Source of the DNA: a virus
Lineage: Duplodnaviria > Heunggongvirae > Uroviricota > Caudoviricetes
Virus record (IMG/VR): IMGVR_UViG_2645727562_000019
Length of the DNA: 12,458 nucleotides
Direction: 5' to 3' (one strand)
The notes below the pieces were generated by a model that worked only from the letters and a program-made list of their open reading frames with translations, was not told the origin of the DNA and searched no databases. The stretch's first letter is position 1, and every line of letters starts with the position of its first letter. A program made the position numbers and the translations under genes. Shown here piece after piece: positions 1 to 10,648 of the stretch.

Positions 1-1257
1 GTGCTTACCGATACAAAATTAAAAAACCTCAAGCCGCAGGACAAACTGTACAAGGTCTCCGATCGTGACGGGCTGTATGTAGCTGTGCTTACGTCAGGCA
101 CGGTCTCGTTTCGCTATGACTACCGTATCAACGGTCGCCGCGAAACACTGGTAATCGGGCAGTATGGGCGTGACGGTATCAGCCTGGCAGAAGCGCGGGA
201 AGAACTGATTGCTGCAAAGAAGCTGCTTAAAGCAGGCCAGTCGCCGGCTGCGGCTAAACGTGACGGTATCAAAAAGATTCGTGGTGCCGAGACGTTTGCG
301 GTACATACCGACAGTTATATGAAACACGTCATCCTGGCTGACAGTACCCGCGCAATGAAGCAGGCGGTGATCGACCGTGACATACTTCCGGTTCTTGGCA
401 ACAAAATGATGGCTGAAATTACCACATCGATGGTTCGTGATTTGTGTGACCGGATTGTCGAACGCGGTGGCCGTGCAACAGCAGTACAGTCCAGGGAGAT
501 CATCAGCAGCGTATACCGTCACGCCAATGACCGTGGTCATGGTTTGTTTAATCCTGCGGCTGACATTAAACCTTCGTCTATCGCCATATTTAAACCACGA
601 GAGCGAACACTGACACCAGAAGAAATTGGCCTGTTCTTCCGTACGCTGGATGCCATTGGTGCTATGGGCACTATGAAAATGGCTTTAAAGCTGGTGCTTA
701 TCACTATGGTTCGTAAAGGCGAGTTCACCAATGCAACGTGGGATGAAATAGATTTTAAAAAATGGACATGGACAATTCCTTCAGACCGCATGAAGGGAAG
801 CCGGGCGCACGTTATTTACCTGCCTAAACAGGCACAGGATATATTGGTCGGGTTGCAGATGTGCGCTGGTGGAAGTGAATATCTGGTTCCTGGTCGTTAC
901 AATTTCCGGAAGCCATTATCTAATGCCGCGCTGAACTCTCTGATCGACAGAACGGTGAAAATAATAAATGAAGATGGTGAGCATATTCAGGACTTCACTG
1001 TACATGATATGCGCCGTACAGCCAGTACGTTGTTGCATGAGGCTGGTTATCCTTCAGACTGGATTGAAAAGTCTCTGGCACATGAGCAGAAAGGTGTGCG
1101 CGCCGTATATAACAAAGCGGAATACGCCAGACAGCGCGCCTACATGTTGCAGCAGTGGGCCGATATGATTGATTCCTGGATTGACGGGGAGCATACGGAT
1201 CTGATTCCGTTCTCCCCGTCGAAGTTTGAGAGGTGGATGGAAGACAGTAATAAATAA
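1..1257 (+). CDS. int: Tyrosine site-specific integrase (P4-type phage integrase family)
   Basis: 418-aa ORF with N-terminal LTDTK...LYKVSD arm-binding-like region, box II HDMRRTASTLL (HxxR) and C-terminal VRAVYNKAEY tyrosine region. GTG at window position 1, so the true start may sit at or just upstream of the edge. Stop TAA at 1255-1257. Confidence 0.85.
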   Translation: MLTDTKLKNLKPQDKLYKVSDRDGLYVAVLTSGTVSFRYDYRINGRRETLVIGQYGRDGISLAEAREELIAAKKLLKAGQSPAAAKRDGIKKIRGAETFAVHTDSYMKHVILADSTRAMKQAVIDRDILPVLGNKMMAEITTSMVRDLCDRIVERGGRATAVQSREIISSVYRHANDRGHGLFNPAADIKPSSIAIFKPRERTLTPEEIGLFFRTLDAIGAMGTMKMALKLVLITMVRKGEFTNATWDEIDFKKWTWTIPSDRMKGSRAHVIYLPKQAQDILVGLQMCAGGSEYLVPGRYNFRKPLSNAALNSLIDRTVKIINEDGEHIQDFTVHDMRRTASTLLHEAGYPSDWIEKSLAHEQKGVRAVYNKAEYARQRAYMLQQWADMIDSWIDGEHTDLIPFSPSKFERWMEDSNK

Positions 1258-1259
1258 TT

Positions 1260-1919
1260 CTATCCTTCCTGGACTTTGGTAAGCGTCAGATTTCCGCAGA
1301 ACACTGCGCCGGTGTCGATGTACATTTGGTTTGCATACACCAGTGGGTGATGTGCTGGCGTATGACCGAAGATGAACAAATCGGCACCGGTTATCTCCGA
1401 GACAATACCGTCCTGCGCGTCGCTAACCCGCTCACGATTCCATATCACCATTTCTTCCGGTACTGGCTTATCGAATGCGTATTCGTTGTGCGGGTAGTCT
1501 GCGTGGCAGATGACGACCTTCTTATTGCCGGTAACCAGTTCGATAATCATCGGGAGGTTGGTAACCTTTGGCAGAAGGTATTTGAGTTGCACATCCTGCT
1601 CAGAATCAAGTTGGTGCCACCATCCACCGCCGTTTGACATCCAATGTCCGAAACTTCCGCCGTTGACCAGTGCATCCAGCATCATCTGCTCATGGTTGCC
1701 ACGAACAGCTCGGAACCACGGAATAGTAATCAAATCCAGGCATTCGACGTTTTCAGCGCCGCGGTCAACAAGGTCACCAACGGAAATAAGCAAATCGCGC
1801 GCCGGGTCGAATGAAACTTTGTCGAGTTCGTTCATCAGCAGCGTGTAGCACCCATGCAGATCGCCGACGACGAAGATATTGCACCAGTCAGCGCCATTGA
1901 TGCGTTGATATAGGTTCAT
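1260..1919 (-). CDS. Serine/threonine protein phosphatase, lambda PPase-like metallophosphoesterase
   Basis: Near-colinear resemblance to lambda phosphatase as recalled: [46 protein letters not shown]. Start taken at ATG 1919 (MNLYQRI...) with GGGAG 8 nt upstream; the track ORF extends further 5-prime to 2039 but that would overlap the upstream gene. ATGA overlap with the upstream methyltransferase. Confidence 0.9.
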
Positions 1920-2566
1920 GCTGCACGCTCCCGCCCCTGGTTGTCTGTTGGTGACAGCGGAGCATTGCTGAATGCATTTGTTAATCCGCCAATATCCAAC
2001 GCGTATCCAGGATGTAGTTGCACTGCCGGGTCTTCGCACTGATTACCCCAAACATCGAAACCATGAGACGACTGGCGGGCGAACAGTTCAATGCGAGAAA
2101 CATCGCCTAACAATTGCACAAGTTTTTCACGAACGACATCTGGTTTTCTTGAATGCTCAAGCCGCGGTGCGGTAAATGACTGAACGATCCCTGCATTAAT
2201 GCGTGGAGGTAGTTTTCCCTTTACTGCAAACAGGCAATCTTCACTATTGGCGCGAGTCATGTGTCCCATACCCATAACCAGTTTATCTGGTTGTCGACTA
2301 CCACATTTTATCCACGTGAAGCCCTTCATGGTCATCAGACGGAATCCCCAGGCTTCAACAACTTTTAGTGCTTCGAGTGGTTGTGTTGGCACCCACCACA
2401 TGGCCAACAGACAGTTTTCATCGGCCAAATCCCACACAGGAAGGCGGCAAATATCCAGCACACTCATAACCGGATATTTAAAACCGGCACCGCGATTACC
2501 ATCCGCGGCTTTGTCCCGGTATACCCAGGGTGGATCTGCATAGATTAGTGTGTATTTCTTAGTCAT
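1916..2566 (-). CDS. MT-A70-family N6-adenine DNA methyltransferase, apparently orphan (no restriction partner nearby)
   Basis: IYADPPW(V)Y motif near the N-terminus, typical of the MT-A70 / phage Dam-like family. Start taken at ATG 2566 ([14 protein letters not shown]). Stop TGA 1916-1918 overlaps the phosphatase ATG (ATGA). Confidence 0.8.
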
Positions 2567-5268: not shown

Positions 5269-6303
5269 TCAATATTTGATATACGCGTCCTGCACTTTGC
5301 CGCCAGCGATAGCCAACATTGCTTTCTGCGCGAATTCTTCGGGAATGCCTTGGGCTATCAGATCTGCGATTACTCTGCGGTTAACGGTACGGCGATGCTC
5401 TTTATCCGCAGCTCGGCGCGCTTCTTCGTCGGCGATACGCTTCTGTTCTTCAATGCGGGCTTTTTCTGCCTCCTCTTGGCGTCGGCGTTCCTCGGCAACG
5501 GCTTCTTCTTTTTCGCGTCGTGCACGCTGCTCTGCTTCAATTCGCTGACGTTCTGCTACTTCAGCACGTGCTTTCTCTTCCGCCGCCAGGCGTGCCGCAG
5601 CATCAATTTCAGCTTTCGCTTTTTGTTCAGCTTCGAGCCTGGCCTGTTCAGCAGCTTCCCGGCGGATATTCTCTTCTCGCTCAATGCGCGCTTTTTCCTC
5701 CGCTTCTTTGCGAAGTCTCTCCAGCTCAGCGGCTTCATGCTCGCGTTTTTGAGCTACTGCGAGTGATTCTTCCAGTTTCTGGATGGTTGAATCCTTGGCT
5801 ACTCCAGCTTCTGCTGCGTACTCCTGCCAACTCTCATCAAGTGCTACTGATTTAGCCTCTTGAATTCGTTCCTGAATATCAGTTGATGGCAAGTAGTTTC
5901 CGGAGAGATCGATCACGTCAGCCAGTGCTCGCAAATTTGTCAGGCGTTGTTGCAGTGCTTCAGTGCGTAATTTCTCAGCATTTTCCCACTCGGTGAGTGG
6001 GCGGCGTACTTCATCACGAAGCCGATCGCATTCGGTTACGAGGCGTCGTAACTCTGCTTCAACTACTTTCGGCTGTTCTTTCAGGCGTTTCAGATAATCA
6101 CGTCCTGGTTTTTCTACCGCTGTTTTACTTCTTGAAACCTTCGCAGCCAGAGATGCAATGCGCTTTCTGCCTTTGTCTGTGCTAATGTCAGGCACTTCAT
6201 TAACACCTTCACGGATCTGCTCGAGAAACTTTTCCAGTCCTTTTTCAACGTAAATTCTTGGTGCCATATCTGGTGTGATTTCGATGATTGATAATTCACT
6301 CAT
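5269..6303 (-). CDS. Coiled-coil protein with an E/A/R/K-rich low-complexity segment, function unknown
   Basis: 344-aa ORF with a strong GGGAGGAGG SD before ATG 6303. The central ~120 aa are repetitive (EAEEKARIERE..., AEQKAKAEIDAAARLAAEEKARAEVAERQRIEAEQRARREKEEA). Coding potential is supported by operon context and the ATGA overlap with the upstream small ORF. Confidence 0.7.
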   Translation of the reverse strand: MSELSIIEITPDMAPRIYVEKGLEKFLEQIREGVNEVPDISTDKGRKRIASLAAKVSRSKTAVEKPGRDYLKRLKEQPKVVEAELRRLVTECDRLRDEVRRPLTEWENAEKLRTEALQQRLTNLRALADVIDLSGNYLPSTDIQERIQEAKSVALDESWQEYAAEAGVAKDSTIQKLEESLAVAQKREHEAAELERLRKEAEEKARIEREENIRREAAEQARLEAEQKAKAEIDAAARLAAEEKARAEVAERQRIEAEQRARREKEEAVAEERRRQEEAEKARIEEQKRIADEEARRAADKEHRRTVNRRVIADLIAQGIPEEFAQKAMLAIAGGKVQDAYIKY

Positions 6304-6461
6304 TTGCTAACCTCCTCCCATAGCTCGTTATCGTTGGCTACATCGCGAGCTTCTTTGCTGACGAAAGCCCACTTAATGCCTTCCTGTAAGGTGCGGAACT
6401 TCCAGCTCATGAATCCGCATGCAGTAACGCAGTACCAACCGTTGATGATTTTCCACTGCAT
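6300..6461 (-). CDS. Small Trp-rich protein (53 aa), first gene of the leftward operon; absent from the ORF track (below 60 aa)
   Basis: Manual translation of the minus strand gives MQWKIINGWYCVTACGFMSWKFRTLQEGIKWAFVSKEARDVANDNELWEEVSK. ATG at 6461 with GAGG 9 nt upstream; stop TGA 6300-6302 overlaps the next ATG (ATGA). Confidence 0.45.
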   Translation of the reverse strand: MQWKIINGWYCVTACGFMSWKFRTLQEGIKWAFVSKEARDVANDNELWEEVSK

Positions 6462-6480
6462 AACTTGTTACCTCGGTTTG

Positions 6481-6557
6481 TTACCGTTGAGGTAATAATT
6501 ATGCGTATCTGGTTTGATGTCAATAGATATGAGTTAAAAAAATTACCCGTTAGGTAA
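6481..6557 (-). promoter_or_regulatory. PL-like early-left promoter with two operator palindromes
   Basis: Minus-strand TTGACA (-35) at 6518-6523 followed by an AT-rich -10 region. TTACCGTTGAGGTAA at 6481-6495 lies between the -10 and the mRNA start; TTACCCGTTAGGTAA at 6543-6557 lies 19 bp upstream of the -35. The layout mirrors lambda OL/PL. Confidence 0.6.
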
Positions 6558-6570
6558 TCTAATAGGCAAT

Positions 6571-6592
6571 AAAAAAGCCGCCAGAAGGCGGC
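6571..6592 (-). terminator. Intrinsic terminator ending the repressor transcript
   Basis: GCCGCC-agaa-GGCGGC stem-loop (6577-6592) followed on the minus strand by a U6 tract (A-run 6571-6576 on plus), 23 bp downstream of the repressor stop. Confidence 0.7.
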
Positions 6593-6614
6593 TTACTTAC
6601 TGAAAAATATGATT

Positions 6615-7199
6615 TTATTGTTTGTTTTTTTCGTTCTGGTTGATGACAAATTCAATGTAACTTTCGATCTTTGCTTTCTCGGTTTCGGGTAACAAAGCGT
6701 AGCGCGAGCGGTCATAGTTGATAGTCGCAGGGTCGTGCGGGTGAATCAGTAATTCATAGCCGTGACGCCCGAATGCGGATGCAACATTCTCCAGGGTGGA
6801 AATGGAAACGCTGACCTCATTGTTTAACAGGCGGCTGATTGTCACCTGGGCGACGCCGGATGCGCGGTGAAGTTTTCCCTGCGTTGAAAGGTCGCGGCTT
6901 TCGCTCATCCAGCGTTCCAGGTTGTGAGCCGCCAGCTGACCAATGTCGCTTGGTCCGACAGGCTGAAAACCTTCCTGAGAAAGCGAGCGATCGATATCAA
7001 GCCAGTTACGGGGTTTATTGGCGGCAGCTTCAATTTTTCGCGCAACCTGGTCGCCGATAACCTTCTTGCCAAGAGCCCAGCGGTTTACCAGATTTGCCTG
7101 AGTTCCAAGTTTTTCTGCCATCCGCGTCTGAACACCATTGAATTCACGGTCGATCAAGTCGTTGAGATTTTGCCTACGGACGTCCTGGATACTTTTCAT
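6615..7199 (-). CDS. Prophage repressor candidate (CI-like role): two XRE-type HTH domains, no recognisable S24 peptidase/autocleavage domain
   Basis: 194 aa. N-terminal HTH-like segment VQTRMAEKLGTQANLVNRWALGKK and a second HTH-like segment LSTQGKLHRASGVAQVTISRLLNNEVSVSISTLENVASAF. Divergent from the Cro-like gene with an operator cluster between them; no obvious SD before ATG 7199. Confidence 0.65.
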   Translation of the reverse strand: MKSIQDVRRQNLNDLIDREFNGVQTRMAEKLGTQANLVNRWALGKKVIGDQVARKIEAAANKPRNWLDIDRSLSQEGFQPVGPSDIGQLAAHNLERWMSESRDLSTQGKLHRASGVAQVTISRLLNNEVSVSISTLENVASAFGRHGYELLIHPHDPATINYDRSRYALLPETEKAKIESYIEFVINQNEKNKQ

Positions 7200-7254
7200 T
7201 TTCTGGAAAATCGCCTCATATATGAATCAGTAGATGATTCAATTTAAAGCAATA

Positions 7255-7328
7255 TTACCCAACAGGTAAATGCACCCCATAGGTAACCATCCTTGATTTT
7301 TGTTACCTTATGGGTGAATATTTATTAT
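7255..7328. promoter_or_regulatory. OR-like operator cluster with PR-like promoter
   Basis: Three palindromes: TTACCCAACAGGTAA (7255-7269), GCACCCCATAGGTAA (7272-7286) and TTACCTTATGGGTGA (7303-7317). Candidate rightward promoter TTGTTA (7300-7305), 17-bp spacer, TATTAT (7323-7328), 26 bp before the cro-like ATG. Confidence 0.55.
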
Positions 7329-7353
7329 CTGAAATAAATATCAGGCAATAGCT

Positions 7354-7584
7354 ATGAGCGATAACGAACATTTCGATTTCAAAAAGCACTGGCTTGCACT
7401 TACTCCAGATGAGCGTGAAGCCTTCGCACAGGAAGCCGGAACGACGAGTCACTATATCCAGACTCACTTAACAGGTAAGCGCAAAATGCCAGGTAAAGTA
7501 TTGATGAATGGGCTTTTTAAAGCCTGTAAATCAAGACAATGGTTGCGCTCAAAAGCAGAACTGGCATACTTCTTCTACTCATGA
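7354..7584 (+). CDS. Cro-like small HTH regulator
   Basis: 76-aa ORF divergent from the repressor and immediately downstream of the operator cluster. HTH-like segment AFAQEAGTTSHYIQTHLTGKRKMP. Followed by an intrinsic terminator. Confidence 0.55.
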   Translation: MSDNEHFDFKKHWLALTPDEREAFAQEAGTTSHYIQTHLTGKRKMPGKVLMNGLFKACKSRQWLRSKAELAYFFYS

Positions 7585-7605
7585 TATCCAGCCACAACCC
7601 TCTGT

Positions 7606-7628
7606 AGACCGCCATCCGGCGGTCTTTT
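7606..7628 (+). terminator. tR1-like intrinsic terminator after the Cro-like gene
   Basis: AGACCGCC-atcc-GGCGGTCT perfect 8-bp stem followed by TTT, 22 bp past the cro-like stop. Confidence 0.6.
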
Positions 7629-7639
7629 CATATCTATTC

Positions 7640-7654
7640 GCACCTCAAAGGTAA
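7640..7654. promoter_or_regulatory. Isolated operator-like palindrome between the tR1-like terminator and the zinc-ribbon gene
   Basis: GCACCTCAAAGGTAA, the same variant form as the OR site at 7272-7286. Confidence 0.35.
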
Positions 7655-7734
7655 TAAAAAACCAAATCTGGTTGATCTTTTTTTTGTGTCAGCACAAAAT
7701 AACCGTAATCCCAATACTAATAACAGGGCTTACC

Positions 7735-7950: not shown

Positions 7951-8790
7951 ATGAGCAGACATGCAACAGATTGGGCCTGGGAGACAGATCCAGGTAGCTC
8001 GTCATTAAAGCTCATACTGCTCTCGATGGCTGACAGAGCCGATGAATATAACCTCTGCTACCCCAGCATAGAACGCCTCGTTAAAGACACTTGCCTGAAT
8101 AAAAAAACCGTACAGGCCGGGCTTATATCGCTCATGAAAATGGGGCTTATTTCAGATACCGGAGAGAGAAAGGGAGCGACGAAAAGAGTGCGGGTTTTCT
8201 CTCTTAATATAACCAAAAAAGGGAACATTAAAGGCAACCTAGATGGGTGTAATGAACCCGAAAACGGTAATGTTCCCAAAAACGGGAATATACCCAAAAA
8301 CGGGATGTTGAATGATCCCAAAAACGGGATGTTGAATGATCCCAAAAACGGGATGTTGAATGATCCCAAAAACGGGATCCAGAACCAGTCATATAACCAG
8401 TCATTTAACCAAGAGAGGGAGAGCAGGACAAAAACCGGGGATTCTGTGCCTCATGACCCCGGCGCAAACAACGCCGTGATGAATAACTTTGTTCCTCCTG
8501 GTGGGCCAGGGCAATTAGGCAAATTTGTCATGCATGAACAATGGCAGCCATCAGATGACTTTCTTCGGAAAAGCTCATTGCAGGGAATCTACCTGGACAG
8601 TCTGCCAACGGCACAGGAACTTGCAGAGTTCAGAATTTACTGGATGGCTGAGGGTAAGGCATACCATCAGGCACAGTGGGAGCAGAAGCTGGCAAGGCGG
8701 CTGCAGATTAGCAGACAGAAGCAATCAACATTACCTGATAACAACGTTCCGCACTGGAACAGCCCTGAAGCATGGGAGGATTTCTTGTGA
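7951..8790 (+). CDS. Replication initiator (lambda O-like), N-terminal winged-helix DNA-binding domain, iterons embedded in the coding sequence
   Basis: 279 aa; GGAG SD 7 nt upstream. N-terminal DWAWETDPGSSSLKLILLSMADRADEYNLCYPSIERL resembles phage replication-initiator HTH domains. The middle encodes PKNGMLND x3 from iteron DNA, as in lambda O. Placed directly upstream of the P-like gene. Confidence 0.75.
   Translation: MSRHATDWAWETDPGSSSLKLILLSMADRADEYNLCYPSIERLVKDTCLNKKTVQAGLISLMKMGLISDTGERKGATKRVRVFSLNITKKGNIKGNLDGCNEPENGNVPKNGNIPKNGMLNDPKNGMLNDPKNGMLNDPKNGIQNQSYNQSFNQERESRTKTGDSVPHDPGANNAVMNNFVPPGGPGQLGKFVMHEQWQPSDDFLRKSSLQGIYLDSLPTAQELAEFRIYWMAEGKAYHQAQWEQKLARRLQISRQKQSTLPDNNVPHWNSPEAWEDFL
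8257..8378 (+). repeat. Origin-of-replication iterons: six copies of the CCCAAAAACGGGA core (three as the perfect 16-bp palindrome ATCCCAAAAACGGGAT)
   Basis: Cores start at 8257 (degenerate CCCGAAAACGGTA), 8275, 8293, 8317, 8341 and 8365, spaced 18, 18, 24, 24, 24 bp. Followed by the AT-richer direct repeat CCAGTCATATAACCAGTCATTTAACC (8383-8410). Confidence 0.8.
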
Positions 8791-9609: not shown

Positions 9610-9686
9610 TTACCTGATGGGTAATAAAATATTCTAAAATCTATTGATTTCGTGTCTTATGTGGTTTTTAATTACCTCAGGGGTAA
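9610..9686 (+). promoter_or_regulatory. Third operator-controlled promoter, with the same architecture as the PL-like region
   Basis: TTACCTGATGGGTAA (9610-9624), 19 bp, TTGATT -35 (9644-9649), 22 bp, TTACCTCAGGGGTAA (9672-9686), then ATG at 9690. The gaps (19 and 22 bp) and the 62-bp operator centre spacing are identical to the PL-like region read on its coding strand. Confidence 0.55.
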
Positions 9687-9689
9687 ATC

Positions 9690-10043
9690 ATGAGAAAACA
9701 GATACAGGCTCTTGGTCGACTCAAAACAGGCCAGATGAACAAAACAGAATCTGCGTATTGCCAGCACCTTGAGCAGCGTAAACGTGCAGGGGAAATCGCC
9801 TGGTATCGATTCGAGGGTATCAAGCTGCGGTTAGCTGATAACTGCTTCCTGACTGTAGATTTTGCCGTGATGTTGGCTGACGGGCAGTTGGTGATGGTGG
9901 ACGTTAAGGGAAGTAAGTCAGTCTTTACTGACGATGCGAGAGTCAAGATGAAGGTTGCGGCAGACAGCTATCCGTTTGTCTTTCAGGTTGCTTATCCAAA
10001 ACCTAAAAAGCTCGGTGGTGGATGGGAGGTTGAGGAACTATGA
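9690..10043 (+). CDS. DUF1064-family protein (PD-(D/E)XK nuclease-like fold)
   Basis: 117 aa; pattern ESAYCQHLEQRKRAGEI...FEGIKLRL...VDFAVMLADGQLVMVDVKG...KMK fits the phage DUF1064 family signature as recalled (...AGEI...F.L...Y.ADF...VEDVKG...). Stop overlaps the next ATG (ATGA). Confidence 0.6.
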   Translation: MRKQIQALGRLKTGQMNKTESAYCQHLEQRKRAGEIAWYRFEGIKLRLADNCFLTVDFAVMLADGQLVMVDVKGSKSVFTDDARVKMKVAADSYPFVFQVAYPKPKKLGGGWEVEEL

Positions 10044-10648
10044 GCGAGAAGCCCAATGCTGCGGGATTGATTGTATCCGGTGATAAAAACCCGAATTGGA
10101 AGGGTGGGAAAATCGAAAAGGTTTGCTCCGTATGTGGCAGGCAATATCAGGTTAAGCGAGCCAACTCCTCTTCAAGGTTCTGCTCACTTCAGTGTGTAGG
10201 AATTTCACAGCGAGGCAAGACGGTAAATCGGGAACTAAAGCGAGTATTAAAAATATGCTGCGTATGCGGATCTTCGTTCTCCGTTTTCTTGAGTCATGAG
10301 AAGCGTCATAAATGCTGCTCGAAACAGTGTTCCAACATAATGCGTTCTTCTCTGATGAAGGGGGAAGGAAATCCAAACTGGTCTGGTGGATTATCGAGAT
10401 TGCCGTATCCGTGGGATTTCCGAGAAACGAGCAAGAGGGTTATTGAGCGAGATGGTTTTACTTGTCAGAACCCAGGTTGTGATGGAACAGACAAAAGGCT
10501 AACAACTCATCATATCAATTACGACAAGCAAGACTGTCGTCAGGAGAACCTTATTTGTCTTTGTTCGAGCTGTAACTCGAAGGCTAATTTCGGTCGGCAT
10601 AAGTGGCAAAAGTTTTATGAATCACTGATGAAAAATAGATCGGCATGA
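10040..10648 (+). CDS. HNH endonuclease with duplicated N-terminal Cys-rich modules
   Basis: 202 aa. C-terminal HNH core CQNPGCDGTDKRLTTHHINYDKQDCRQENLICLCSSCNSKAN. NPNWKGG (aa ~17) and NPNWSGG (aa ~111) motifs, with two Cys-rich segments between them: CSVCGRQYQVKRANSSSRFCSLQC and CCVCGSSFSVFLSHEKRHKCCSKQC. Confidence 0.8.
   Translation: MSEKPNAAGLIVSGDKNPNWKGGKIEKVCSVCGRQYQVKRANSSSRFCSLQCVGISQRGKTVNRELKRVLKICCVCGSSFSVFLSHEKRHKCCSKQCSNIMRSSLMKGEGNPNWSGGLSRLPYPWDFRETSKRVIERDGFTCQNPGCDGTDKRLTTHHINYDKQDCRQENLICLCSSCNSKANFGRHKWQKFYESLMKNRSA

What the first reader, a model, noticed from the sequence alone, without database searches (positions are those of the whole stretch)
6615..7199. Repressor candidate has two HTH domains and no visible autocleavage domain, so the induction route is unclear
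Lambda-type CI proteins carry a C-terminal S24 peptidase domain for RecA-stimulated cleavage. Here both halves look like XRE-type HTH domains and no Ser/Lys dyad region is recognisable. Induction would then need an antirepressor (as in Gifsy-type or 186-type systems) or another signal, and no antirepressor is recognisable in the window. There is no SD before the start codon; whether the transcript is leaderless cannot be decided without a mapped start site.
Basis: inference. Interest (0 to 1): 0.45.

Follow-up and report, generated by a model that had tools for sequence, protein, structure and literature searches.

The report
Known antirepressor-controlled phage repressor (Rep)
The gene is the already studied lysogeny repressor of phiV10/epsilon15-type E. 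coli prophages, which is not cut during DNA damage but is switched off by a small LexA-controlled antirepressor (Ant) encoded about 20 kb outside this window, so the finding is correct but ordinary.

Summary
The ORF at 6615-7199 (minus strand, 194 aa) is real.

The protein is 100% identical to gp40 of E. coli phage phiV10 and ORF21 of phage vB_EcoP_ZX5. It is 42% identical over its full length (E 4e-42) to Rep of Salmonella phage SPC32H, which has crystal structures (PDB 5D4Z, and 5D50 as the Rep-Ant complex). In that family the repressor is a tetramer that RecA does not cleave. A small antirepressor, Ant, whose gene lies behind a LexA box, removes it from DNA.

The window holds neither an Ant homologue nor a LexA box. 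Every close relative has both. This includes phiV10 and an E. coli prophage that is 99.5% identical over 86% of the window. In them ant (85 aa, 88% identical to SPC32H Ant) lies beside the tailspike gene, directly behind a CTGT-N8-ACAG box.

The window carries the expected operators (TTACC-N5-GGTAA) at OL, at OR and at a third promoter.

The induction route is published, so novelty and interest are low.

The parts
6615..7199 (-). rep: lysogeny repressor, 194 aa, SPC32H Rep family
   Evidence: ORF. 100% identical to phiV10 gp40 and ZX5 ORF21. E 4e-42 over the full length to PDB 5D50 chain A 'Repressor'. 42% identical to SPC32H rep. Overexpression of the identical ZX5 protein blocks the lytic cycle (PMC9782041).
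7014..7199 (-). Rep N-terminal HTH domain (aa 1-62), the inferred DNA-binding domain
   Evidence: Cro-like YdaS_toxin/DUF739 and weak HTH_3 matches. Helices 4-19, 24-31, 35-43 and 50-59 in the model. About 54% identical to the SPC32H N-terminal domain, with NLVNRW conserved (my count on the alignment).
6948..7013 (-). Inter-domain linker (aa 63-84)
   Evidence: pLDDT below 50 for aa 63-82. This is the stretch where the alignment to SPC32H Rep has its gaps.
6618..6947 (-). Rep C-terminal XRE-like domain plus C-terminal helices (aa 85-194), the inferred tetramerisation and Ant-binding domain
   Evidence: HTH_3 best stretch at aa 106-147. E 4e-20 to 5D4Z, which is Rep residues 92-198. Foldseek TM 0.81 and rmsd 2.9 A to 5D4Z.
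6575..6594 (-). Intrinsic terminator after rep
   Evidence: Stem of 8 pairs (6 G-C) followed by a T run. Annotated as a terminator at the same place in phiV10.
7255..7269 (.). OR operator proximal to rep (TTACCCAACAGGTAA)
   Evidence: Perfect match to TTACC-N5-GGTAA. The window has 14 matches with up to 2 mismatches against 3.2 expected, and 0 of 200 shuffles reach that count. The position is conserved in five phages.
7272..7286 (.). OR middle operator (GCACCCCATAGGTAA, 2 mismatches)
   Evidence: It starts 17 bp after the first operator starts, as in SPC32H, eps15 and BUCT711.
7303..7317 (.). OR operator proximal to the cro-like gene (TTACCTTATGGGTGA, 1 mismatch); overlaps the -35 hexamer and spacer of PR
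7242..7270 (-). Candidate rep maintenance promoter (-35 TTTACC at 7270-7265, 17 nt spacer, -10 TTAAAT at 7247-7242)
   Evidence: Conserved across the window, Tyrion, SPC32H, eps15 and BUCT711. It falls below the consensus-scan threshold, so this is inference.
7300..7328 (+). Candidate PR promoter (TTGTTA, 17 nt, TATTAT) driving the cro-like gene
   Evidence: Promoter scan.
7354..7584 (+). cro-like gene (76 aa), divergent from rep
   Evidence: phrog_35 'transcriptional repressor', E 9e-13. Syntenic with phiV10p41 and eps15 gp39.
6495..6523 (-). Candidate PL promoter (TTGACA, 17 nt, AATTAT) for the early-left operon
   Evidence: Matches 10 of 12 consensus positions.
6481..6495 (.). OL operator overlapping the -10 hexamer and start of PL
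   Evidence: Perfect site.
6543..6557 (.). OL operator upstream of the PL -35 hexamer, 62 bp from the other OL site
   Evidence: Perfect site. The 62-bp spacing is conserved in seven genomes.
9610..9624 (.). Distal operator of a third Rep-controlled promoter after replication gene P
   Evidence: Perfect site. The equivalent eps15 site is annotated as repressor-binding.
9672..9686 (.). Proximal operator of the third promoter (TTGATT at 9644-9649, 17 nt, TTTAAT at 9667-9672), just before the gene that starts at 9690
   Evidence: Perfect site, 62 bp from its partner. The promoter was read from the sequence, so it is inference.

Best explanation
The ORF is the immunity repressor (Rep) of an epsilon15-like (Uetakevirus) prophage of the phiV10 type, integrated next to guaA in E. 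coli.

Inferred mechanism, by homology to SPC32H Rep. The N-terminal HTH domains of a Rep tetramer bind 15-bp palindromes, TTACC-N5-GGTAA. These lie at OR (three sites), at OL, and at a third promoter after gene P (two sites 62 bp apart in each of the last two). Binding shuts PR, PL and the third early promoter. The C-terminal HTH-like domain does not read DNA. It builds the dimer and tetramer and is the docking surface for the antirepressor.

Rep has no S24 peptidase domain and is not cleaved. On DNA damage, LexA self-cleaves and frees the ant promoter. That promoter lies outside this window, between the virion genes and the tailspike gene. The 85-aa Ant protein then binds Rep, breaks up the DNA-binding tetramer and induces the prophage.

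Shown here: identity of the protein, domain architecture, absence of S24, the operators, and the presence of ant plus a LexA box in all close relatives. Shown by others: repressor function of the identical ZX5 protein, and the Rep-Ant mechanism in SPC32H. Inferred: that the part of this particular prophage outside the window carries ant, and that phiV10-type Ant acts on this Rep.
For: Identity with known proteins:
- phmmer against PDB gives 5D50_A 'Repressor' at E 4e-42 over aa 1-190, and 5D4Z at E 4e-20 over aa 89-190.
- Foldseek with the AF2 model puts 5D50 ('Rep-Ant complex from Salmonella-temperate phage') and 5D4Z on top.
- The protein is 100% identical to the phiV10, ZX5, PAS61 and phiv142-3 proteins, and 41.8% identical to the SPC32H gene annotated 'rep: repressor'.
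- No S24 domain is found.

Ant and its LexA box in relatives:
- The SPC32H record annotates ant (86 aa) divergent from the tailspike gene.
- phiV10p24 is 88% identical to it (E 4e-56).
- A LexA box sits directly upstream of ant in phiV10, SPC32H, ZX5, eps15, Tyrion and the closest E. coli prophage.
- SPC32H and its non-lysogenising sibling SPC32N differ at only two bases. One of them changes ACAG to AAAG in that LexA box.

Co-occurrence of rep and ant:
- Rep and Ant homologues occur together in 35 of 36 phage records.
- They occur in near-equal numbers of complete E. coli genomes, 537 for rep and 529 for ant, out of 5426.

Operators and literature:
- The operators are strongly over-represented and sit on promoters.
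- PMC9638917, PMC7380047 and a bioRxiv 2025 preprint summarise the Rep tetramer, the Ant tetramer and LexA control.
- PMC9782041 shows that overexpressing the identical ZX5 repressor abolishes free phage and cuts lysis-gene transcripts by 99.97-99.99%.
Against: - The ant gene and LexA box cannot be checked for this exact prophage, because they lie beyond the window. The best genome match covers only 86% of the window.
- Rep is only 42% identical to the biochemically studied SPC32H Rep, while Ant is 88% identical, so conservation of the interface is assumed and not shown.
- Tetramer formation, Ant binding and lack of RecA cleavage have not been tested for the phiV10-type protein.
- The primary SPC32H papers (J Virol 2013, PNAS 2016) were not readable in the library. 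Their details rest on secondary citations, on database records and on my memory.
Confidence: 0.9

Rival explanations
1. Induction runs mainly or additionally through a second antirepressor. This is the BRO-N protein encoded just downstream of ant in E. coli Uetakeviruses. Its C-terminal 75 aa are an Ant-like domain, and it may answer to a signal other than LexA.
For: - The BRO-N protein of the closest prophage matches Ant over aa 154-232 at 38-42% identity.
- ZX5 ORF4 matches phiV10 Ant over aa 152-223 at 44% identity, E 3e-20.
- The BRO-N protein of the closest prophage matches phrog_450, the family of the small Ant, over aa 153-234.
- Overexpressing ZX5 ORF4 lowered lysogeny about 1000-fold and lowered rep transcripts by 75% (PMC9782041).
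Against: - The gene is split by a frameshift in phiV10 (two tblastn pieces in different frames; two annotated genes p22 and p23), so phiV10 probably does without an intact copy.
- It is absent from SPC32H and eps15.
- It follows a terminator, and no LexA box was seen in front of it.
- Binding to Rep has not been shown.
Confidence: 0.3
2. Rep is inactivated by RecA-stimulated or other proteolysis despite lacking a recognisable S24 domain, for example by cleavage in the linker.
For: A flexible linker at aa 63-82 exists. Nothing else supports this.
Against: - There is no S24 hit at E<=1.
- Both domains are all-helical, with no beta-rich peptidase fold.
- From my memory of Kim & Ryu 2013, SPC32H Rep is not cleaved on SOS induction. 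PMC7380047 reports only that LexA self-cleavage leads to an antirepressor that inhibits the repressor by protein-protein contact.
- A single base change in the ant LexA box is one of only two differences between SPC32H and the non-lysogenising SPC32N.
Confidence: 0.03
3. The protein is not the prophage repressor but an XRE-type antitoxin or accessory regulator. One phage record labels it a VapI/HigA antidote.
For: - One GenBank record annotates it as 'plasmid maintenance system antidote protein VapI' (H7).
- There is a weak HigA hit, E 1.2e-3, far below the family cut-off.
Against: - The gene sits in the classic immunity position, divergent from a cro-like gene, with three operators between them.
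- There is no adjacent toxin gene.
- The identical protein has repressor function.
- It has full-length homology to a structurally solved repressor.
Confidence: 0.02

Closest known systems
Rep/Ant switch of Salmonella phage SPC32H (Kim & Ryu, J Virol 2013; Kim et al., PNAS 2016; PDB 5D4Z and 5D50)
   Same: - Full-length homologue: 42% identity, E 4e-42.
- Same two-domain helical architecture, with no S24 domain.
- Same genus (Uetakevirus) and same gene position.
- Same operator consensus TTACC-N5-GGTAA, with the same arrangement of three OR sites and pairs 62 bp apart.
- Close relatives carry an Ant 88% identical to SPC32H Ant behind a LexA box.
   Different: - The sequence has diverged, about 54% identical in the N-terminal domain and under 40% in the C-terminal domain.
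- Operator spacers are mixed or GC-containing here and A/T-rich in SPC32H, so immunity specificity may differ.
- E. coli members add a BRO-N/Ant-like fusion gene that SPC32H lacks.
- There is no biochemistry on this orthologue.
phiV10 gp40 and vB_EcoP_ZX5 ORF21 repressor (Perry et al. 2009 genome annotation; Li et al. 2022, PMC9782041)
   Same: Identical amino-acid sequence. The ZX5 protein was shown to block the lytic cycle when overexpressed.
   Different: - Those papers did not connect the protein to the SPC32H Rep-Ant mechanism.
- The ZX5 paper tested the BRO-N protein as antirepressor and left the small LexA-controlled Ant annotated as hypothetical.
Coliphage 186 CI/Tum and the Gifsy/Fels-2 repressor-antirepressor systems
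   Same: Same logic: a repressor that is not cleaved is inactivated by a LexA-repressed antirepressor.
   Different: - No homology to these systems turned up. Rep's searches returned only generic XRE/HTH families and its own Uetakevirus relatives, and small Ant matched none of the named 'anti-repressor Ant' PHROGs, only a weak hit (E 7.6e-7) to phrog_1760.
- From memory of Kim & Ryu 2013, Ant was described as structurally distinct from the antirepressors of sipho- and myoviruses.
- Here the repressor is a two-HTH-fold tetramer, and Ant acts by rearranging the oligomer rather than by covering the DNA-binding surface (PMC9638917).
Lambda CI / P22 C2 (HTH plus S24 peptidase, RecA-stimulated autocleavage)
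   Same: - Same role and same divergent rep/cro layout.
- Three OR operators and separate OL operators.
- A terminator after the repressor gene.
   Different: - No S24 domain.
- The C-terminal domain is an XRE-like helical fold.
- Induction is reversible and works by protein binding, not by cleavage.

Membership tests
SPC32H-type Rep (Uetakevirus repressor) | Full-length sequence homology to SPC32H Rep | tested here: met
   phmmer E 4e-42 over aa 1-190 against 5D50_A. BLASTP gives 42% identity, E 2e-53.
SPC32H-type Rep (Uetakevirus repressor) | N-terminal HTH domain, flexible linker, and a C-terminal helical domain that matches the Rep 92-198 crystal structure | tested here: met
   AF2 model. 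Foldseek TM 0.81 and rmsd 2.9 A to 5D4Z.
SPC32H-type Rep (Uetakevirus repressor) | No RecA-dependent autocleavage domain | tested here: met
   No Peptidase_S24 hit at E<=1. The fold is all-helical. Actual non-cleavage was not tested.
SPC32H-type Rep (Uetakevirus repressor) | Cognate operators shared with SPC32H and eps15 at OL, at OR and at the post-replication promoter | tested here: met
   TTACC-N5-GGTAA sites at 6481, 6543, 7255, 7272, 7303, 9610 and 9672. The same layout occurs in SPC32H, eps15, Tyrion and BUCT711. The eps15 record annotates its sites as repressor-binding.
SPC32H-type Rep (Uetakevirus repressor) | Partner antirepressor Ant under a LexA box in the same phage | not testable with these tools
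   The locus lies outside the window. It is met in all relatives examined: phiV10, ZX5, the E. coli 602687 prophage, eps15 and Tyrion. Rep and Ant co-occur in 35 of 36 phage records. BUCT711 has an imperfect box.
SPC32H-type Rep (Uetakevirus repressor) | Tetramer that binds DNA in trans and is disassembled by tetrameric Ant | not testable with these tools
   This needs biochemistry or multimer modelling. It is known only for SPC32H (PMC9638917).
Lambda CI / LexA-like S24 repressors | C-terminal Peptidase_S24 domain with a Ser/Lys dyad and an Ala-Gly or Cys-Gly cleavage site | tested here: not met
   No S24 match. The C-terminal domain is an XRE-like helical fold.
HigA/VapI antitoxins | Score above the family cut-off and an adjacent toxin gene | tested here: not met
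   TIGR02607 scores 18.7 bits against a cut-off of 47.7. No toxin ORF is adjacent.

The most novel reading that the evidence does not exclude
phiV10-type E. coli prophages may have a two-input, self-reinforcing induction circuit. One input is the small LexA-gated Ant. The other is a BRO-N::Ant-domain fusion under separate control. In addition, a Rep operator beside the ant promoter would make Ant release its own gene from Rep, giving positive feedback. A single Rep tetramer may bridge operator pairs set 62 bp apart (about six helical turns) and so clamp whole promoters. None of this has been shown for this lineage, and it lies mostly outside the reported coordinates.
Probability: 0.25. Interest if true: 0.35.

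Novelty: already known. Interest (0 to 1): 0.1.

Why it matters
The result matters mainly for annotation. About 10% of complete E. coli genomes (537 of 5426) carry this repressor labelled only 'helix-turn-helix domain-containing protein'. Its partner Ant is labelled 'hypothetical protein', and phrog_450 is labelled 'unknown function'.

Recognising the pair as the SPC32H-type Rep/Ant switch predicts three things. These prophages, including phiV10-like phages of O157 and other STEC strains, are SOS-inducible through LexA. Induction is reversible. Antirepressor cross-talk between co-resident prophages is possible.

It opens no new question about repressor biology.

Tried and rejected
- Reading the primary SPC32H papers and the eps15 genome paper by DOI and PMC id failed, because they are not held. 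I used secondary citations, GenBank annotations and a direct SPC32H/SPC32N genome comparison instead.
- I looked for an S24 domain, for an Ant homologue in the window, for any antirepressor PHROG among the window ORFs and for a LexA box in the window. All were negative.
- NCBIfam gives no family above its cut-off for Rep, and no match at all for Ant, the cro-like protein or the BRO-N protein.
- I looked for a whole-window match that would identify the exact source prophage. The best was 86% coverage at 99.5% identity (E. coli 602687), so the rest of this exact prophage could not be inspected.
- The leaderless-mRNA idea is unsupported. No -10 element lies immediately before the ATG, and a conserved promoter-like element lies about 40 nt upstream.
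- I did not attempt Rep-Ant complex modelling, because the tools predict single chains only. I did not analyse interface residues, because coordinates and the paper were unavailable.

Full report
**What is in the sequence**

The window is the integrase-to-replication segment of an epsilon15-like temperate podovirus (genus Uetakevirus). The immunity region 6400-7700 is 98.4% identical at the nucleotide level to E. coli O157 phage phiV10, and is found in about 560 of 5426 complete E. coli genomes. The whole window matches a prophage next to guaA in E. coli strain 602687 at 99.5% identity over 86% of its length.

The ORF at 6615-7199 on the minus strand (194 aa, ATG start) is exactly where the finding says. 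It sits in the classic immunity position. It is divergent from a 76-aa cro-like gene at 7354-7584 (phrog_35). An intrinsic terminator at 6575-6594 follows it, and then the early-left operon.

**Checking the observation**

- Pfam finds HTH_3 in two stretches, the best at aa 106-147, plus a Cro-like YdaS_toxin match at aa 21-61. It finds no Peptidase_S24 even at E<=1.
- An AlphaFold2 model built from 32 homologues has two helical domains, aa 4-59 and aa 85-151 with further helices to 193. A low-confidence linker at aa 63-82 joins them.
- After the Rep structures themselves, Foldseek's best matches are XRE-type HTH proteins such as SinR, NHTF, ClgR and DdrO.
- No ORF in the window matches an antirepressor family. 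tblastn with Ant finds nothing. The window has no CTGT-N8-ACAG LexA box.

**What the protein is**

The protein is 100% identical to phiV10 gp40, to vB_EcoP_ZX5 ORF21 and to the same protein in about a dozen other E. coli phage records.

A sequence search of the PDB returns 5D50 chain A, 'Repressor', at E 4e-42 over residues 1-190. It returns 5D4Z at E 4e-20 over residues 89-190. Foldseek names these entries 'Rep-Ant complex' and 'Repressor from Salmonella-temperate phage'. They are Rep of Salmonella phage SPC32H. The SPC32H GenBank record annotates rep at the syntenic position and ant (86 aa) divergent from the tailspike gene. Identity between this protein and SPC32H Rep is 42%. The eps15 RefSeq record makes the same HHpred link to 5D50.

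**How it most likely works**

For SPC32H the literature reports the following.
- The repressor is inactivated not by cleavage but by an antirepressor made after LexA self-cleavage (PMC7380047 citing Kim & Ryu 2013).
- Rep binds DNA as a tetramer in which the DNA-binding pairs come from different dimers.

I could not open the two primary papers, so I checked their central genetic claim directly. SPC32H and SPC32N differ at only two bases. One of them converts the ACAG arm of the LexA box in front of ant to AAAG.

In the phiV10 lineage the partner is present.
- phiV10p24 (85 aa, annotated 'hypothetical') is 88% identical to SPC32H Ant.
- It is preceded by TACTGTGTATTTATACAGTT.
- The closest E. 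coli prophage has the same gene behind CACTGTATAAATATACAGTT, and ZX5 has it behind TACTGTATAAATATACAGTT.
- eps15 and Tyrion also have perfect boxes at ant.
- Rep and Ant homologues co-occur in 35 of 36 phage records.
- They occur in nearly equal numbers of complete E. coli genomes, 537 for rep and 529 for ant.

Direct functional evidence exists for the identical protein. Overexpression of ZX5 ORF21 eliminated free phage and reduced endolysin and holin transcripts by 99.99% and 99.97% (PMC9782041).

**DNA targets in the window**

The palindrome TTACC-N5-GGTAA is strongly over-represented. The window has 14 matches with up to 2 mismatches against 3.2 expected, and no shuffle reaches that count. 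The sites sit on promoters.
- OR has three sites, at 7255, 7272 and 7303. The last overlaps PR (TTGTTA-17-TATTAT).
- OL has two perfect sites, at 6481 and 6543, bracketing PL (TTGACA-17-AATTAT).
- Two more perfect sites, at 9610 and 9672, bracket a promoter-like element just before the gene at 9690.

The same consensus and the same spacing recur in phiV10, SPC32H, eps15, Tyrion, BUCT711 and the E. coli prophage. The spacing is 17 bp between the first two OR sites, and 62 bp within the OL and post-replication pairs. The eps15 record already annotates several of these sites as repressor-binding. A spacing of 62 bp is about six helical turns. That would let one tetramer hold both sites of a pair. 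This is my inference.

**Translation start**

No usable Shine-Dalgarno sequence precedes the ATG. The only GAGG ends 14 nt upstream. The same lack is seen in Tyrion, SPC32H, eps15 and BUCT711. A conserved TTTACC-17 nt-TTAAAT element overlaps the rep-proximal operator and ends about 42 nt before the ATG. If it is the maintenance promoter, the mRNA has a leader of roughly 35 nt and is not leaderless. Only start-site mapping can settle this.

**Comparison with known systems, and novelty**

In logic the switch resembles 186 CI/Tum and the Gifsy systems, in which a LexA-gated antirepressor acts on a repressor that is not cleaved. By homology it belongs to the SPC32H Rep/Ant family. Every membership feature testable in the window is met. 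The partner gene and the oligomer biochemistry cannot be tested here. It fails the defining feature of lambda-type CI, which is the S24 domain.

The induction route is published, and the identical protein has been studied, so I rate the finding 'already known' with low interest.

**Residual uncertainty**

- The part of this exact prophage that would carry ant was not available.
- Rep has diverged much more than Ant between the two lineages (42% against 88% identity), so conservation of the interface is assumed.
- E. coli members also carry a BRO-N protein whose C-terminal 75 residues are an Ant-like domain. This is the protein the ZX5 authors tested as 'anti-repressor'. It could be a second induction input.

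Noticed in passing
L003 9196-9906 (+); L005 (ZX5) 1078-1773 (-); L001 (phiV10) 19551-20230 (-): The BRO-N domain protein encoded downstream of ant in E. coli Uetakeviruses has a C-terminal 72-79 aa domain 38-44% identical to the small antirepressor Ant; the L003 copy also matches phrog_450. This is the 'ORF4 anti-repressor' tested in the ZX5 paper, which left the small LexA-controlled Ant as 'hypothetical'. In phiV10 the gene appears to be frameshifted.
   Followed up: partly
window 6481/6543 and 9610/9672; the same pairs in L001, L002, L003, L006, L007, L008: Perfect Rep operators occur in pairs exactly 62 bp apart (63 bp once), each pair bracketing a promoter. The spacing is conserved across seven genomes whose Rep proteins share as little as 42% identity. 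This suggests one tetramer bridges both sites on the same face of the DNA.
   Followed up: partly
L001 20877-20891 and 20497-20511; L002 20013-20027; L006 897-911: Rep-operator palindromes also lie in the ant/tailspike intergenic region; in phiV10 (L001) a further one lies just downstream of ant. Others lie before the terminase, portal-region, holin and integrase genes. Rep may therefore control far more than PL and PR, and may co-repress ant with LexA, which would give positive feedback on induction.
   Followed up: no
Rep and Ant proteins of phiV10 (L001) and SPC32H (L002): Ant is 88% identical between the two lineages but Rep is only 42% identical, although both use the same operator half-sites. 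Spacers are A/T-rich in SPC32H, eps15 and BUCT711 and mixed in phiV10-type phages. It is unclear what sets immunity specificity, or whether Ant cross-reacts between lineages.
   Followed up: no
L007 (Klebsiella phage BUCT711) 17010-17035 and 384-399: In BUCT711 the box in front of ant is imperfect (ATGT-N8-ACAG). The only perfect LexA box lies before an unrelated 109-aa hypothetical gene at 34-363.
   Followed up: no
window 8249-8411 (+), inside the O-like replication gene 7951-8790: There are three adjacent tandem-repeat arrays: 18 bp x3.1, 24 bp x3.6 at 100% identity, and 12 bp x2.4. The 24-bp array encodes NGMLNDPK repeats. By analogy with lambda O, these are probably the origin iterons.
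   Followed up: partly
window 5269-6303 (-): A 344-aa, highly charged protein (phrog_1376, unknown function; the homologous position in NZ_CM168011.1 includes a gene annotated 'coiled-coil domain-containing protein') sits in the early-left operon. It has no counterpart in the phiV10, SPC32H or eps15 annotations at this position.
   Followed up: no
window 1260-2039 (-) and 10040-10648 (+): There are two accessory genes not present in phiV10 at these positions. One is a NinI-like Ser/Thr phosphatase next to int. The other is an HNH endonuclease after the Holliday-junction-resolvase-like gene at 9690-10043.
   Followed up: no
PHROGs phrog_450; RefSeq WP_001188252.1 (L003 8623-8880): The SPC32H-type Ant family is labelled 'unknown function' in PHROGs and 'hypothetical protein' in RefSeq E. 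coli genomes, even though a crystal structure of the complex exists. This is an annotation gap that affects about 10% of complete E. coli genomes.
   Followed up: partly
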